Positions 9,566-27,350 of a stretch of 39,258 bases of DNA are shown here, piece after piece (positions within the stretch are counted from its first letter, which is position 1; each line of letters begins with the position of its first letter). Position numbers and translations under genes: made by a program. A model generated the notes under the pieces. It made no database searches and had not been told where the DNA came from. It worked only from the letters and a program-made list of their open reading frames with translations. This DNA is from Terracidiphilus sp. Lineage in GTDB: Bacteria; Acidobacteriota; Terriglobia; Terriglobales; Acidobacteriaceae. Location: positions 1 to 39,258 of the forward strand of contig DASWZM010000126.1 of NCBI GenBank assembly GCA_036404455.1, in the 5' to 3' direction.

Positions 9566-9851
9566 AATCAGGAGTCTATCGCATCCGTCGCAGGAGCCGA
9601 TACGATGCAGGACGGCGGATCGGTTTCCGAACCGCCGATGCTTTGGTGGCGGCTTCGTTCCCGGACAGAACGGCGTTTCAAGGGACCTATGTTGGCGATG
9701 CGTTTAAGGCCGCCAATCGGCTCTGGCTCGCTGCCCCTCTCCTCGATTTGGGAATCGACGAACTGGAGATATGGCCCAACTCGCCGTCCAAACGGATCAG
9801 GAAAACAGTGCCAAAGAGGGGCGAGGCGCGTACCCCGCCCCTCTTTGCCAG

Positions 9852-12011
9852 CTACGAGAGCAACACCGTGAACGAGTAATACATGGTTTCCTGGTAGTAG
9901 TCGTACTCCCCAAGGCAATTGACGATGTTGCGCTTATCGACGGTGAGGATCAATTCGTAGGCGCAGCTTTGGGGGAACAACGACGAGGCGTCCGGAATGG
10001 TGAGCGTCATGGTGCCGCCATTCCAGATCGGACGAACAGCGCCCTCGGCGATGGCATCGGCATAGCATGGCCCCACCTGAACGCCGATTGGGGCAGTAAG
10101 CCCACAGGTTGGGGGCGTTGTAAGACACCCGCAGGAAACCAGGGGCGTCGGGGGGTTTGTTCCCCATTGCAGGGTGAGCGAATAGGAATCGAGGAAGCCC
10201 TCCGCATCGCTCGCTGTGAAATTCACCGCGAAGGAGAACGGCGGGCCCTTCGGCAGTGTAAGGATGCCGCAGGGCGGCAGAGCGGAGCCGTTGAAGTAGA
10301 CGGAGTTGATCGCGGTGTCGGGATAGGTTTCGCCCAGCGTGGGGTTGGCGAAGTACAGCGTAAAGTCATTGTTGTAGTTGACCCCAAGCTTGCTCGGCTT
10401 TCCGCAGCCCGGCAGCGCCCCGTTGGACAGAATGGTTCCATCTGACTCCAGCGTGTAACCGACGATCTGGAATTCATACGGGCCATCGACAAAGAACCCG
10501 GCCGTCTCGATGGCCGCGACTTGATCGATGTTGTTTGTCCAAACCTGTCCTGTCAACGGGCTTCCCCAGTCGTTAGGCGGAGTGGGGTTGCTCAATTGAA
10601 AGAACTGGGGGCTCATGTAAACTTGAGCGAATTGCCCAGGCATCCCGGTAAGGGGAAGCGGGCCTGGCGCAAACACTGGGTTGAACCACTGAAACGGGAA
10701 AGACTTTGTGGCGTCGAAGTAGGTCATGCTGAAAGGCTGCAGAGCCGAAGCAGGCACCGGCAGCCAGGTCGACGTGCCCTCCGGACGATACTGGATCGCG
10801 TAGTAGTCGGCGTAATGCAGGTCAGAGGGCAAATAGCCAAATTGCCCGTATATGCCCACCAGTCCAGTGAACGGACGGTCTTCGGAGCCGGGATCCGCAA
10901 ATCCCGCCAGCGCGCCGGAGCCAGTAATTCCAATGTCCTCTGCGGCCACGGAGCAGGCCCCTGTGAAGAGGAAGCATGCGCCGTCGGGCTGTCCCGGTTG
11001 AGGCGGAATGGTGCAGGCATCGGAGTTGGCGGTGAGGGTTACGTTGAGGCTGGTCGGAATATCGATGCGCGCCTGCCAGACGTTCTCGTTGAGGATCACG
11101 TTATTCAAGCCGCCGCAGCTCTGGGTCACTTTGAAGATGATGTTCGGGTCGCAATCGAACCACGGTGTCCAGGGACACCAGGGCCACAGACAAAATCGCT
11201 CGAACTCCGGCACAGTGGGCAGCAGATTCACGAGCTTCTCGCGAACTGCAGAAAGGGTACTCGGATTGAGTTCCGGGACGGTCACGTTTGGCCGCGACAC
11301 TGCCTGGCGTAGCCGCCGCCCTGCTTGGTCTATGGGCGGCAGCGGCTGCGGGTTCAGCGCCGAGAAGCTCAACGACAGTTCCGGACTGGGAGGATTGACG
11401 CGTAGGCCTGGGTTGAGCTTCAAGACTGGCTGGATCTTATCTACCAGCACCGGATCGAGCCACCATTCCCGTAGCTCCCACCAGTACCACGGAAGCCAGC
11501 CGCAGCACCATGTGAATTCGATGGAGAAATATCCACTGGGGTCGGTGATTGCGGTGGGGCCGACCTGGCCGGTGGAGGACCACCACCAGAACCAGTCCAC
11601 GTTGTAAGCGGAGACCTGGGCGCTCGGAACCGGGTTTCCGTCGGTCCCGTACACATAGCCGCTGATGGTGAAGGTGCGGCACCAGATCAACCACAGCCTC
11701 CATATGGGAAGCGTGATCACGATGGGGTTGACCTTGTAGACCAGGTTCCCTTCTCCCGCCTGCGGGCGCACCGTGACAGTGGGTGTGTTGCGACGAAAAA
11801 GGTCCGGCGCAGATGTTGACTCCGGGCCGACAACGACGGTGACCGTGCCGGTTGTATCGAGCTCCAGTTCGGCTGTCGCACGGCCGGAAGTTACGTCGAC
11901 GACAGTGGATACGATCTCCTTACCGCTCTGCGCGGCCACCCGTAAGCGTTGCTTGCCGCGCTCTTCGGCGGGGATTCCGGACGCGTTGATTGGGACGTGG
12001 ATAATGCTCAT
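9852..12011 (-). CDS. Hypothetical 719-aa Cys/Trp/Pro-rich protein with a carboxypeptidase-regulatory/Ig-like domain
   Basis: Long ORF with an AGAGGAA RBS. The segment FTISGYVYGTDGNPVPSAQVSAY...ITDPSGYFSIEF fits a beta-sandwich signature. No signal peptide is visible. Confidence 0.85.
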   Translation of the reverse strand: MSIIHVPINASGIPAEERGKQRLRVAAQSGKEIVSTVVDVTSGRATAELELDTTGTVTVVVGPESTSAPDLFRRNTPTVTVRPQAGEGNLVYKVNPIVITLPIWRLWLIWCRTFTISGYVYGTDGNPVPSAQVSAYNVDWFWWWSSTGQVGPTAITDPSGYFSIEFTWCCGWLPWYWWELREWWLDPVLVDKIQPVLKLNPGLRVNPPSPELSLSFSALNPQPLPPIDQAGRRLRQAVSRPNVTVPELNPSTLSAVREKLVNLLPTVPEFERFCLWPWCPWTPWFDCDPNIIFKVTQSCGGLNNVILNENVWQARIDIPTSLNVTLTANSDACTIPPQPGQPDGACFLFTGACSVAAEDIGITGSGALAGFADPGSEDRPFTGLVGIYGQFGYLPSDLHYADYYAIQYRPEGTSTWLPVPASALQPFSMTYFDATKSFPFQWFNPVFAPGPLPLTGMPGQFAQVYMSPQFFQLSNPTPPNDWGSPLTGQVWTNNIDQVAAIETAGFFVDGPYEFQIVGYTLESDGTILSNGALPGCGKPSKLGVNYNNDFTLYFANPTLGETYPDTAINSVYFNGSALPPCGILTLPKGPPFSFAVNFTASDAEGFLDSYSLTLQWGTNPPTPLVSCGCLTTPPTCGLTAPIGVQVGPCYADAIAEGAVRPIWNGGTMTLTIPDASSLFPQSCAYELILTVDKRNIVNCLGEYDYYQETMYYSFTVLLS

Positions 12012-12087
12012 GATTCCTCTTTTCGTAGGGGGGTTAAGTTGCGGTTGGGGAAGGTGCGGCGGGGTCGAACCACGCAGCGGAATCTGG

Positions 12088-12363
12088 TTAGAGAACGGGC
12101 CTCAGGCCGGGAACGGAAACCAGGGACGGCGCGTCGGAACCGTGCACGGATAAGCGCGCGCCCTTTGCCGAAAAGCGGTAGGTTGCGCCGGTAGCGGGCC
12201 CGGTAACCACAATCGGGGCGGCGCCGTTGAACTCGAAGGTGACGTGCTTTACGGGCACACTGCCCCTCGCGCTTGCCCCGGCGGATGCGCGTCCGCGCGC
12301 CGCGCCGGGCAAAGACTGGTAACTCGTGCGTTGCGCGGCGCGATGGCCGCCACAGCAGGACAT
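12088..12363 (-). CDS. Small hypothetical protein (91 aa) starting MSCCGG
   Basis: ATG at 12363 with a GGAGA RBS that overlaps the upstream stop codon. The C-terminal part FEFNGAAPIVVTGPATGATYRF...VHGSDAPSLVSVPGL looks protein-like. It is the 3' part of listed ORF 12088..12762. Confidence 0.78.
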   Translation of the reverse strand: MSCCGGHRAAQRTSYQSLPGAARGRASAGASARGSVPVKHVTFEFNGAAPIVVTGPATGATYRFSAKGARLSVHGSDAPSLVSVPGLRPVL

Positions 12364-12374
12364 TGCCGGTTCTC

Positions 12375-12731
12375 CTATTCTGGCGGCGAAACGGATTCCT
12401 CGCGCCACTCGGCTGGGGCCGCGGAAAGATTCCGTGTGGAGGTGATGCGCTCCAACAGAATCGCCGCTCCCGAAATGGCCATCCACGCTATGGCGCGGTC
12501 CGGCCATGTTGCGCCGATCCAGCTGCCAAGCGGAAGGGCAATCCAAATGCTCAGGCAATAAAAGCAATCGAGGATCTGGCCGGCAAAAGAACTGCCCGCC
12601 AGTTTCCGCAACCGAACGAAGCAGTTCCAAGGCCCATCTTCGCCCCACAGCAGATGCGTCAGCCGCCAGGCAGCGAGGGAGGCGATCAGCACATCCGTGA
12701 GCGATAACTTGAAGCCCCACGAACTTTGCAT
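12375..12731 (-). CDS. DUF1360-like membrane protein with CxxC motif
   Basis: LAAWRLTHLLWGEDGP...RLR...ILDCFYCLSIWIA plus hydrophobic helices match the DUF1360 pattern. The exact start is uncertain. Confidence 0.78.
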   Translation of the reverse strand: MQSSWGFKLSLTDVLIASLAAWRLTHLLWGEDGPWNCFVRLRKLAGSSFAGQILDCFYCLSIWIALPLGSWIGATWPDRAIAWMAISGAAILLERITSTRNLSAAPAEWREESVSPPE

Positions 12732-13425: not shown

Positions 13426-15516
13426 ATGAAACGTCGCGACTTTGTGAAAGCCATCTCCGCCGCGGGAACCGGCCTGCTTCTCCGCCCAGGCTCACCGCTT
13501 TCTCTCCATGCCCAGGAAATCCAGCCGGACCCCGCCGTCAAGCGCGTTCTCGTCATGTTCAAGTGCCACTTCGACGCCGGATTCATTGACACCCAGGCCA
13601 ACGTCGTCCACAAATACTTTACCCAATACTTCCCCCACGCCATCGAGATTGCCCGCGCCGCAAACGCCTCGGGCAAACGCCGTTATGTGTGGACCACCGG
13701 CTCCTGGCTGCTCTTCGAATACCTTGAGCAGGCCTCGCCCGCGGACCGCAAGACGATGGAACAGGCCATCGCCCGCCGTGACATCGCCTGGCACGCTCTC
13801 CCCTTCACCTGGCAGACCGAGTTGCTCAGCCAATCCATGATCGAGGGCAGTCTCGCGTTATCGCAGTCCCTCGACCGCCGCTTCGGCGTCGTCACCACCG
13901 GCGCCAAGATGACCGACGTCCCGGGCCACACCCGCGCCATCATTCCGCCGCTGGCCAAACACGGCATCAACTTCCTCGAAATCGGCGTCAACGACGCTTC
14001 CACGCCCGCCCAGTTGCCTCCCATCTTCCTCTGGATGGACCCATCCGGCGCGAGTCTGCCCCTCATGTATCATCTCGCATACGGCGGCATCGCCCGCGTC
14101 CCCGGCTCCGATCTCGCGGTGGCAACCAGGGTGCGGGGAGATAACAGCGGCCCGCACACTCCCGATGAAATCGCCGCCATTCACGCCGATCTCGCCGCCC
14201 AATTCCCCAACGCCGAAATCTCCGCCGCCACCCTCTCTGACATCGCCAACGCCGTCAACCCGCATCGTGCCAGCCTGCCCATCGTCACCCAGGAAATTGG
14301 CGATACCTGGATCCACGGATGTTCCAGCGATCCGCTGAAAGTCGCCCGCTATCGCGAAGTGTCGCGCCTGCGCAATGCTTGGATCGCCCAGGGCGCCTTT
14401 CAAACCGGAGACGCAACCGACCTTGCCCTGCTGCGCCACCTCTTGCTCGAAGTCGAGCACACCTGGGGCACCGACACCAAGACCTGGCTGGACTTCGACA
14501 ATTACAAGCCCGCCGATCTGGCCCGTATGCTGGACACAAAGAATTACAAGATCGTCCAGTTCAGTTGGGATGAGAAGCGTCAGGACCTGCTCGACGGCGT
14601 CGCCACGCTGCCCGCAAATCTGCGCGGCCAGGCCCGGCACGCCATCGAAAACCTCAACCCCGCCGAGCCAAAACCCTTCTCCCAGGCCGCCGCCCATCCT
14701 GCCGGACAGCCGATCGAAACCACGCATTTCATCCTCGGAATCGATCCGCAAACCGGGGCCATCACCCGGCTCCGCAACAAGACGACTGGCCGCGAATGGG
14801 CAAGCCAGGCCAACCCCATCGCGCTCTTCACCTACCAGACGCTTTCCAAAGAGGACTATGACCGCTTCATGGCCGTCTACCTGAAATCCAAAGCGGATTG
14901 GGCCTTCAAAGACTTCGGCAAGCCGAACATCGAGAGGTTCGGAGCAGAGAGCCGGCAGTGGCAGCCGGGCTCAGCCGTGGTTCATGAAGAAGAGACAGCC
15001 GATGCCCACCGCATCCTCGCCAGCCTGCAATTCCAGGACGAAGAGGCATTTCAATCCGGACGCGCCTCTTTCCCGCGCAAAGTCTTCATCGAGCTGCTGC
15101 TGCCCAAGGTTGAACCGGTCATCCATCTCAACCTGTCCTGGTTTCAGAAGCCCGCAACCCGCCTCCCTGAAGCCATCTGGCTCACCTTCAACCCCATCGC
15201 CGAAGACCAGAAGGGCTGGACACTCGAAAAATCCGGTGAGCCCGTCTCGCCCTTCGACGTCGCAACTTCCGGCAATCGCCACATGCACGCCCTCTCCAAA
15301 GGCTTCGAATACCGTCGGCCCGGCCACATCTTCGCCGTCGACACCCTCGACGCGCCGGTCGTCGCCCTGGGCGAAAGAACGCCATTAGGCTTCTCGAACA
15401 CCCAGCCCGGCCTGAGCTCCGGAATCCACTCCAGTCTCTACAACAACGCCTGGGGCACCAACTACATCATGTGGTACGGCGAAGACATGCGCTTCCGCTT
15501 CATCTTGAGGGCCTGA
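13426..15516 (+). CDS. Tat-exported DUF5054 (GH38-like) putative glycoside hydrolase
   Basis: Twin-arginine leader MKRRDFVKA after an AAGGA RBS; FKCHFDAGF, WHALPF, DVPGHT, EIGDTWIHG, EHTWG and NNAWGTNYIMW. Confidence 0.83.
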   Translation: MKRRDFVKAISAAGTGLLLRPGSPLSLHAQEIQPDPAVKRVLVMFKCHFDAGFIDTQANVVHKYFTQYFPHAIEIARAANASGKRRYVWTTGSWLLFEYLEQASPADRKTMEQAIARRDIAWHALPFTWQTELLSQSMIEGSLALSQSLDRRFGVVTTGAKMTDVPGHTRAIIPPLAKHGINFLEIGVNDASTPAQLPPIFLWMDPSGASLPLMYHLAYGGIARVPGSDLAVATRVRGDNSGPHTPDEIAAIHADLAAQFPNAEISAATLSDIANAVNPHRASLPIVTQEIGDTWIHGCSSDPLKVARYREVSRLRNAWIAQGAFQTGDATDLALLRHLLLEVEHTWGTDTKTWLDFDNYKPADLARMLDTKNYKIVQFSWDEKRQDLLDGVATLPANLRGQARHAIENLNPAEPKPFSQAAAHPAGQPIETTHFILGIDPQTGAITRLRNKTTGREWASQANPIALFTYQTLSKEDYDRFMAVYLKSKADWAFKDFGKPNIERFGAESRQWQPGSAVVHEEETADAHRILASLQFQDEEAFQSGRASFPRKVFIELLLPKVEPVIHLNLSWFQKPATRLPEAIWLTFNPIAEDQKGWTLEKSGEPVSPFDVATSGNRHMHALSKGFEYRRPGHIFAVDTLDAPVVALGERTPLGFSNTQPGLSSGIHSSLYNNAWGTNYIMWYGEDMRFRFILRA

Positions 15517-26942: not shown

Positions 26943-27350
26943 CTACGCGCGCCGACGCGCCGACGGAGCCGTGAACGCCCACCAGAATGCGAGGACAGTC
27001 AGCAAAGTGACGATCCCCAGCGAAACGACGCAGTAAAGGCAATACACTTCCAGCACATACTTCTCGATGCGGGTGAGGTAAAGCGAGAATCCCAGCGCAG
27101 CGAAGGCCAAGCCGGCCAGCCACCGGCGTCGCCCCGCCAGCGCCAGCCCTGCCAGCGCAAGGTAGCCCGCGATGCCGATCGCCGCCACCGGAATGTGTGC
27201 GATCTCGGCAAACGGGCTGTGGTTCACGATGCCGCAGTCCCACTTCTCGTTGATAGAGCACGGCTCGGTTCCGGTCGAGTAGTGGACGCGCAGCGCCAGC
27301 GTGGCAACCAACGCGCCGGCAAGGGCCAGGAGTGCAATCGCGTATCGCAT
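26943..27350 (-). CDS. Vitamin K epoxide reductase (VKOR) family protein
   Basis: TM helices, loop Cys pair CSINEKWDC, and active-site CLYC; likely start MRYAIALL. Confidence 0.9.
   Translation of the reverse strand: MRYAIALLALAGALVATLALRVHYSTGTEPCSINEKWDCGIVNHSPFAEIAHIPVAAIGIAGYLALAGLALAGRRRWLAGLAFAALGFSLYLTRIEKYVLEVYCLYCVVSLGIVTLLTVLAFWWAFTAPSARRRA

What the first reader, a model, noticed from the sequence alone, without database searches (positions are those of the whole stretch)
9852..12731. Uncharacterised three-gene Cys-rich operon: CxxC membrane protein + MSCCG small protein + 719-aa Cys/Trp-rich protein
Seen in sequence: three co-oriented genes. The stop codon of gene 1 overlaps the RBS of gene 2, and gene 3 has its own RBS. 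The block sits between unrelated genes with non-coding gaps on both sides and has less C3-biased codon use than the core genes. All three products expose Cys motifs: a membrane-embedded CFYC, an N-terminal CC, and about 18 Cys plus about 25 Trp (my count) in clusters such as FTWCCGWLPWYWW, FCLWPWCPWTPWFDC and SCGCLTTPPTC. The large protein looks extracellular or structural (beta-sandwich, Pro-rich) yet has no Sec/Tat leader. Established: helix-embedded CxxC motifs are the redox centres of DsbB/VKOR-type thiol oxidases. Inference: this may be a self-contained system in which the DUF1360-like protein acts as a thiol oxidase or anchor for assembly of a disulfide- or metal-cross-linked protein coat, granule or lattice. 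A metal-sequestration module is an alternative. This is my best candidate for an undescribed system here.
Basis: partly seen in the sequence, partly recalled or inferred. Interest (0 to 1): 0.85.

Follow-up and report, generated by a model that had tools for sequence, protein, structure and literature searches.

The report
Portable cytoplasm-facing disulfide kit with cargo
These three neighbouring bacterial genes encode a large cysteine-rich protein with no export signal, likely stabilised by disulfide bonds, plus a tiny membrane protein and a two-cysteine partner that recur beside other cargo genes and in phages, and that likely act as an undescribed bond-forming relay predicted to face the inside of the cell.

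Summary
The three genes are real and form an accessory insertion; 0 of 19 genus relatives carry them at this site. The full trio recurs in 20 of 28 genome loci from at least six phylum-level groups.

The fixed unit is the pair: a DUF1360 membrane protein with an invariant CxxC and a small protein with an N-terminal CC or CxC (adjacent in 74 of 80 metagenome loci). The large-gene slot is swappable. The pair also sits in contractile-injection-system loci and in two phage contigs.

In 129 homologues of the 719-aa protein, variable cysteines are gained and lost strictly in pairs. All 3 of 3.09 million residue pairs that behave this way are Cys-Cys. That is a disulfide signature, yet none of 83 homologues has a signal peptide. 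The CxxC is predicted to face the cytoplasm. No kinship to VKOR was found, and no DsbB or VKOR fold match.

Best reading (0.42): an undescribed cytoplasm-facing thiol-oxidation relay plus its client. Four genomes keep the client's cysteines without the pair, so enzyme-free oxidation is a real rival. This scan noted the same operon, and the oxidase idea for phages, before on other DNA.

The parts
12375..12731 (-). Gene 1: 118-aa DUF1360 (PF07098) membrane protein, three predicted long helices (11-30, 57-72, 76-102); invariant R23, C56, C59, W63
   Evidence: (23.8 bits, cut-off 21)
12555..12566 (-). CxxC (C56-F-Y-C59) at the start of helix 2, predicted on the cytoplasmic side
   Evidence: positive-inside bias in 139 of 147 sequences
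12372..12377 (-). Stop codon of gene 1 overlapping the ribosome-binding site of gene 2
12088..12363 (-). Gene 2: 91-aa protein, N-terminal dithiol (CC in 73, CxC in 13 of 86 homologues) followed by Gly and a basic residue, variable linker, small conserved C-terminal domain (invariant Y62, D77)
   Evidence: Atlas structural look-alikes include phage proteins
9852..12011 (-). Gene 3: 719-aa signal-less Cys/Trp/Pro-rich multi-beta-sandwich protein; 12 core Cys plus 6 lineage-specific Cys that occur as pairs
11010..11681 (-). Transthyretin-like beta-sandwich (residues 111-334) with a large Trp-rich insertion
   Evidence: PF13620, below cut-off; 5aq0_B Z 9.0, rmsd 2.4, 79 aligned
9855..10328 (-). 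C-terminal Ig-like beta-sandwich (residues 562-719); the C-terminal part is shared with several divergent partner groups
   Evidence: 6tn6_A Z 8.0, rmsd 2.4, 94 aligned
9812..9847 (-). Terminator-like hairpin directly after the last stop codon
   Evidence: consensus match only

Best explanation
The operon likely encodes a portable two-gene thiol-oxidation relay, predicted to face the cytoplasm, together with one of its interchangeable clients, a large signal-less beta-sandwich protein that is likely disulfide-bonded. Steps: (1) Shown: the membrane gene and the small dithiol gene are the fixed pair, and the large-gene slot varies. (2) Strong inference: the 719-aa protein carries disulfides, because its variable cysteines come and go in pairs. 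(3) Inference: it folds in the cytoplasm, since no homologue tested has a Sec or Tat signal. (4) Predicted: the DUF1360 CxxC lies at the cytoplasmic start of helix 2. (5) Untested: the CxxC is re-oxidised by the membrane quinone pool, and the small protein's N-terminal CC/CxC carries the disulfide to clients, as DsbA does for DsbB. (6) Untested: the client leaves the cell by lysis or a non-classical route, like the phage virions and eCIS particles the pair also accompanies, and acts outside as an adhesin-like or structural protein.
For: Paired gain and loss of Cys in 129 homologues: 134/153 (32 both, 0 alone, 11 changes on the tree), an insertion pair near 558/560 (43 both, 1 alone, 9-10 changes), 122/334 (86 both, 2 alone, 5-6 changes), 274/279, 364/412, 627/649. 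Control: of 3,086,370 column-residue pairs, 3 reach phi >= 0.9 with >= 5 changes and all 3 are Cys-Cys, though only 300 pairs are Cys-Cys. No hydrophobic N-terminus in 83 of 83; no Tat-like motif in 129 of 129. R23, C56, C59 and W63 invariant in 147 bacterial and phage sequences. Positive-inside bias puts the CxxC loop inside in 139 of 147. N-terminal dithiol in 86 of 86 small proteins. Pair adjacent in 74 of 80 metagenome loci and in 12 of 12 strong phylum hits. Partner swaps on the DUF1360 tree: 32 label changes, minimum 10, shuffled mean 45. The same pair occurs in phage contigs L037 and L038. A DUF1360-like gene lies between terminase and portal in phage SilentRX (weak match, E 0.03). PF07098 is present in B. 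subtilis, where yjcA adjoins cotV (PMC11708026); that YjcA is the DUF1360 protein is recalled.
Against: No activity has been measured. The large gene occurs without the pair in 4 loci with long flanks and keeps 11-12 of 12 core Cys, so the pair is not obligatory. CotY forms intracellular disulfides by cooperative lattice packing when expressed alone in E. coli (PMC4950064), and the Jabs paper suggests oxidation at or after lysis. No similarity to VKOR, and DUF1360 has only one Cys pair. Core eCIS proteins are no richer in Cys in genomes with the pair than without (p = 0.27). The helices are short and only moderately hydrophobic, so the topology is a prediction. Two metagenome loci have the membrane gene without the small gene despite ample flank (L108, L150).
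Confidence: 0.42

Rival explanations
1. The large protein's disulfides form without an enzyme, by cooperative packing or by air after lysis. The pair is a structural helper: a membrane anchor or nucleator and a minor subunit that are themselves tied in through their cysteines.
For: Orphan large genes keep their Cys. CotY precedent (PMC4950064). The small protein's C-terminal domain has structural look-alikes among phage proteins (TM 0.59/0.70 over 58 residues), and a phage protein with a similar N-terminus ends in a helix-hairpin-helix domain (L053).
Against: One pair serves very divergent or unlinked clients, which is easier for a catalyst than for a structural subunit. The invariant polar set R/H/E/D/C/C/W on one face looks like an active site.
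Confidence: 0.25
2. The pair is a metal-handling unit: C56, C59, H26 and E31/D32 bind Zn or Cu at the membrane, and the small CC/CxC protein is a metallochaperone for the large protein.
For: Conserved Cys, His and acidic residues cluster on the loop side. Vicinal CC motifs bind soft metals (recalled).
Against: The large protein's variable Cys covary as strict pairs, not as sets of three or four, except 627/629/636/649 in one clade; it has only 2 His. I saw no metal pumps or metal regulators recurring next to the pair in the loci inspected by eye; this was not counted.
Confidence: 0.15
3. DUF1360 is a holin-like release factor for signal-less proteins, and the client is oxidised after it leaves the cytoplasm.
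For: Three helices with predicted N-out/C-in topology, like class I holins (recalled). The clients lack signals. A peptidoglycan-binding gene lies next to L102, and a similar-looking one upstream in L026 (by eye).
Against: The window's operon has no wall hydrolase. In phage loci the gene mostly sits by terminase, portal or other genes rather than an evident lysis cassette. Holins are poorly conserved and need no invariant CxxC (recalled).
Confidence: 0.1
4. DUF1360 is an acyltransferase that lipidates the small protein's N-terminal cysteines, giving a membrane anchor for the large protein.
For: M-x-C-C-G plus basic residues resembles eukaryotic N-terminal S-acylation motifs (recalled). The gene pairing is near-absolute.
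Against: No acyltransferase fold or profile match. It does not explain the paired cysteines of the client.
Confidence: 0.08

Closest known systems
DUF1360 (Pfam PF07098) / phrog_781
   Same: Gene 1 passes the Pfam cut-off; 22 of 22 aligned homologues match phrog_781.
   Different: The family has no described function. The 2 papers that name it give only a table row and a predicted membrane protein of mycobacteriophage Aelin (gp7), said to be associated with the capsid. Neither passage describes the small partner or the clients.
DsbB and VKOR thiol oxidases
   Same: CxxC at the start of a membrane helix; proposed quinone-linked chemistry (established, recalled).
   Different: No profile similarity to six VKORs (0.6%), no fold match, three helices instead of four, one Cys pair, predicted opposite orientation. 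The window has its own separate VKOR gene at 26988-27341.
Poxvirus and mimivirus thiol oxidoreductase pathways
   Same: Dedicated catalysts of disulfide formation for structural proteins (PMC13576161, passage); cytoplasmic site and small dithiol relay proteins (recalled).
   Different: Those use flavin Erv enzymes (recalled); no such family was hit here. [quoted passage not shown]
Bacillus spore crust CotY/CotZ with neighbouring yjcA
   Same: Cys-rich proteins that cross-link inside a cell (PMC4950064); yjcA lies next to cotV (PMC11708026) and is sigma-E controlled (PMC517825); B. subtilis has a PF07098 gene.
   Different: No CotY family hit for the large protein; no sporulation context here; YjcA = DUF1360 is recalled, not tested.
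Disulfide-cross-linked virions (Jabs, Milano)
   Same: Particles built in the cytoplasm that carry many disulfides; the catalyst is called an open question (10.64898/2026.07.24.740622).
   Different: The large protein matches no PHROG family and no viral fold over its length.
Transthyretin-like / CarboxypepD_reg and Ig-like repeat proteins (pilins, S-layer, adhesins)
   Same: Domain folds of residues 111-334 and 562-719 (Z 8-9).
   Different: Only single domains match; no signal peptide; no catalytic domain found.

Membership tests
DUF1360 (PF07098) | Score above the Pfam gathering cut-off | tested here: met
   23.8 bits against 21
VKOR (PF07884) | Profile similarity to VKOR | tested here: not met
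   No Pfam hit; hhalign 0.6%, E 0.099 against 6 VKORs (shallow template)
VKOR / DsbB | Second, conserved cysteine pair in a loop | tested here: not met
   Only C56 and C59 are conserved in 147 sequences
VKOR / DsbB | Four-helix quinone-binding fold | tested here: inconclusive
   Three long helices in the model; neither family is listed
VKOR / DsbB | CxxC at the N-terminus of a membrane helix | tested here: met
   C56-C59 at the start of helix 57-72
VKOR / DsbB | Quinone-dependent dithiol oxidation | not testable with these tools
   Needs an assay
Erv/ALR sulfhydryl oxidase | Erv family profile or fold | tested here: inconclusive
   No Pfam hit; not listed in fold searches
Sec/Tat-exported surface proteins | N-terminal signal peptide on the large protein | tested here: not met
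   0 of 83 with a hydrophobic N-terminal stretch; 0 of 129 with a Tat-like motif; simple scans, no dedicated predictor
M14 carboxypeptidases | Catalytic zinc-carboxypeptidase domain | tested here: not met
   Only the accessory transthyretin-like domain matches, below cut-off; no PDB sequence hit
eCIS component | Encoded in, or always with, an eCIS locus | tested here: not met
   Tube gene in 15 of 28 genomes with the large gene; none found in this genome, which is 57% complete; no hit of the large family in 20 eCIS regions
Holin-based release system | Adjacent peptidoglycan hydrolase and membrane permeabilisation | tested here: inconclusive
   No hydrolase among the three genes; activity untested

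The most novel reading that the evidence does not exclude
DUF1360 plus the CC/CxC protein is a third, non-DsbB, non-VKOR bacterial disulfide-forming system that works on the cytoplasmic side and is shared by phages, spore formers and eCIS carriers; the 640-815-aa clients are subunits of an undiscovered, disulfide-locked particle or fibre that soil and wetland bacteria build inside and release.
Probability: 0.3. Interest if true: 0.9.

Novelty: categorically new. Interest (0 to 1): 0.7.

Why it matters
Bacterial cytoplasm is held to lack a disulfide-forming enzyme. Two 2026 papers say that it is open how phage virions get their disulfides (Jabs preprint) and that no phage thiol oxidoreductase has been described (PMC13576161). 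This operon gives a minimal three-gene test system with a cellular client whose bonds can be predicted pair by pair from covariation. If the relay is real, it would be one candidate answer for virions, spore crusts and these unknown proteins alike, and a 118-aa tool for making disulfide-bonded proteins in the cytoplasm. Even if it is not, the clients are a large uncharacterised group of signal-less, likely disulfide-bonded proteins.

Tried and rejected
Complex prediction of large + membrane + small protein, with the small one as partner: no answer, score 0.10 against a mark of 0.32; neither support nor evidence against. NCBIfam: no family for any of the three. PHROGs: none for the small protein family or for 7 large proteins. 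PDB by sequence: nothing significant for any of the three. Fold searches of the large model gave only generic beta-sandwich matches; the middle part (about 335-560) was barely tested and was not folded alone. Fold searches of the membrane protein gave no clear match (best Z 6.5). No true fusions of DUF1360: both longer hits look like read-through or frameshift artefacts (weak search). Profile comparison did not link the L080/L083 or L078/L079 partner groups to the 719-aa family, and iterated HMMs left them out or borderline. The idea that the pair serves Cys-rich core eCIS proteins failed (sheath 0.97% against 0.89% Cys; 7 against 7 usable loci of 20; crude ORF calling, with some opposite-strand ORFs in the clusters). 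The idea that the large protein is an eCIS part was rejected. Expression: one RNA run holds two short matching contigs (10320-10554, 1 difference; 12498-12648, 0 differences); contigs cannot show transcription, so I do not count it. Sulfur-sulfur distances could not be measured, because model coordinates are not in the script box. Literature searches that found no description of the system.
Full report
Observation. The stop/RBS overlap is real, and a hairpin follows the last stop. The cysteine content is unusual for this genome: 2.5% against a median of 0.74%, reached by 6 of 457 long ORFs. The codon argument is weak because C3 tracks strand. The block is an insertion: none of the 19 best-matching genus relatives (of 58 with the flanking glycosylase gene) has any of the three genes within 1.5 kb of it; in 10 that gene abuts the aldehyde dehydrogenase and in 2 the DUF5054 gene. 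The genome is likely acidobacterial, inferred from its homologues.

The large protein. It has 91 close homologues and 653 representatives at E <= 0.001. The model is confident (pLDDT 89.7, pTM 0.75) and mostly beta. Fold search finds a transthyretin-like sandwich at 112-331 (Z about 9) and an Ig-like sandwich at 562-719 (Z about 8), and no enzyme; the middle part was barely tested. Twelve cysteines are present in 82-83 of 83 aligned homologues. No homologue has a hydrophobic N-terminus (0 of 83) or a Tat-like motif (0 of 129).

Disulfide signature. I aligned the 129 homologues of 680-820 aa, out of the 238 proteins. Variable cysteines occur in pairs: 134/153 (32 both, none alone, 11 changes each on the tree), a pair in an insertion near 558-560 (43 both, 1 alone), 122/334 (86 both, 2 alone), 299/333, 274/279, 364/412, 627/649 and 629/636. 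As a control I scored all 3,086,370 column-residue pairs: 3 have phi >= 0.9 with at least 5 changes, and all are Cys-Cys, though only 300 pairs are of that kind. Positions 134 and 153 face each other across the predicted hairpin 131-141/144-155, and 122 and 334 lie just beyond the first and last strands of one domain; distances could not be measured. Two frequent cysteines (566 in 48, 684 in 73) have no strict partner and could be free or intermolecular. Pairs rather than triads argue for disulfides over metal sites. I ran this test after reading an earlier scan note that used the same reasoning on a phage capsid.

Neighbourhood. Of 28 genome loci with the large gene (a partial scan, 12 of 64 parts), 20 have the full trio, 3 have two genes at a contig end, and 5 have the large gene alone. 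The hosts include Acidobacteriota, Pseudomonadota, Actinomycetota, Gemmatimonadota, Verrucomicrobiia and Deltaproteobacteria, and gene order varies. Seen from the membrane gene, the picture widens. In 400 phylum genomes, 13 have it but only 1 had a match to the 719-aa profile. All 12 strong hits have the small gene next door, and 10 have a divergent 640-815-aa Cys/Pro/Trp-rich protein upstream, with no signal peptide evident by eye. In the 80 best of 575 metagenome hits (biased toward our sequence), 74 have the small gene and 4 of the 6 misses are at contig ends. I assigned 53 to a large partner and 4 to eCIS loci; 23 stayed unassigned, mostly short contigs. The partners fall into at least ten groups. 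One is clearly homologous to ours by profile (96.7%), several join by iterated HMM, and two groups remain unlinked. On a tree of 89 membrane proteins the partner label changes 32 times (minimum 10; shuffled mean 45, lowest 39), so partners are partly inherited and often swapped; the tree rests on about 90 residues and I did not examine its support values.

Beyond the cell's own clients. Relatives of the membrane gene occur in 23 viral contigs. Two carry a true homologue of the small protein (E 1e-17 and 1e-15), and four have other small proteins with N-terminal cysteines. In phage SilentRX a weakly matching gene lies between terminase and portal. The pair sits in five eCIS loci. Genomes with the membrane gene carry an eCIS tube gene more often, 10 of 13 against 56 of 387 (p about 2e-6, without control for size or kinship; the background count includes the unpublished genome G083). 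The link is not obligatory (15 of 28; none found in this 57%-complete genome), and core eCIS proteins are no richer in Cys where the pair is present.

The membrane and small proteins. The model has helices 11-30, 57-72 and 76-102, with two short helices between the first two. R23, C56, C59 and W63 are invariant, and H26, E31, D32, G33, P34, R42 and S87 nearly so; all but W63 and S87 cluster at the loop end. Basic residues favour that loop and the C-terminus as the inside in 139 of 147 sequences. It is a DUF1360 member but resembles VKOR neither by profile nor by fold. The small protein always begins with CC (73 of 86) or CxC (13 of 86), then a variable linker and a compact domain with look-alikes among phage proteins.

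Mechanism. The simplest account that ties these facts together is a cytoplasm-facing oxidase with a tethered-dithiol relay that puts disulfides into proteins built inside the cell and later released (0.42). The pairing of genes is shown; the client's disulfides are strongly inferred; orientation is predicted; catalysis, quinone use, relay and release are untested. The main result against it is that four orphan large genes keep 11-12 of 12 core cysteines. One of those genomes has a weak, distant DUF1360-like match elsewhere, and all four are MAGs that may be incomplete. Rivals are enzyme-free oxidation with a structural pair (0.25), metal handling (0.15), holin-like release (0.10) and S-acylation (0.08).

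Literature. DUF1360 appears in 2 papers of the library: PMC10551460 (one table passage seen) and 10.1101/2023.05.30.542743 (one passage; its Table S2 could bear on this and was not seen). For yjcA I saw passages of PMC3533761, PMC517825 and PMC11708026. For virion disulfides I saw the abstract, outline and one passage of 10.64898/2026.07.24.740622 and passages of PMC13576161 and PMC10811340. For CotY I saw passages of PMC4950064. Searches found no description of this operon in their listings; subscription journals are largely missing from the library. Details of DsbB, Erv pathways, holins and acylation motifs, and the identity of YjcA with DUF1360, are recalled. The scan noted this operon in another genome and the oxidase idea for phage DUF1360 several times; those notes are leads, not support.

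Verdict. A real and widespread accessory module, with no description found in the papers searched. Interest 0.70.

Noticed in passing
window 26988-27341 (-): A stand-alone VKOR gene (PF07884, 74 bits), unlinked to the operon.
   Followed up: partly
L035:785-9294 and L207 (G017): The membrane + small pair closes an eCIS region, after an ATPase and two eCIS-core proteins. That region also holds three very Cys-rich proteins (777 aa/20 Cys with Tail_P2_I and NHL, 878 aa/19 Cys, 602 aa/32 Cys).
   Followed up: partly
L116, L122, L155: The pair lies directly upstream of a sigma-54 activator, a small gene and a contractile sheath gene (L122 sheath recognised by likeness only; no Pfam hit).
   Followed up: partly
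phylum sample: Genomes with the DUF1360-like gene carry an eCIS tube gene more often (10 of 13) than others (56 of 387); genome size and kinship are not controlled.
   Followed up: partly
L001:10154-13300: An orphan large gene (Sphingomonas MAG) is followed by an eCIS-core protein with a deaminase-like C-terminus.
   Followed up: no
L153:518-2413, L171:2-1204, L130:594-1931: Other Cys-rich neighbours of the membrane gene that fell in none of the partner clusters: a PKD-repeat protein with 30 Cys (opposite strand), a 401-aa ORF with 21 Cys, and a 446-aa open frame with 10 Cys.
   Followed up: no
L048:4115-5336, L053:4519-5282, L039:4980-5450, L044:3120-3558: Phage DUF1360-like genes flanked by small proteins that begin with Cys motifs (MAC..C, MAAGCCG, MGC..C, MCNC); these were not linked to the small family by HMM at a useful E-value.
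   Followed up: partly
window 11322-11355 region (residues 219-226 of the large protein): An LNPQPLPP motif in the low-confidence insertion, in the family consensus; no paper in the library holds it.
   Followed up: partly
L034:8649-9360 (G027): The pair stands alone among unrelated genes, with no large partner found in a 100% complete genome (searched with the 719-aa profile only).
   Followed up: partly
window 13426-15516 (+): The DUF5054 gene next to the operon is itself variable: in 10 of 19 relatives the glycosylase gene abuts the aldehyde dehydrogenase directly, in 2 it abuts DUF5054.
   Followed up: yes
L078:12038-14776: Near the operon: a metallopeptidase, a small Cys-containing protein and a ThiF-family gene, possibly a peptide-modification cluster.
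   Followed up: no
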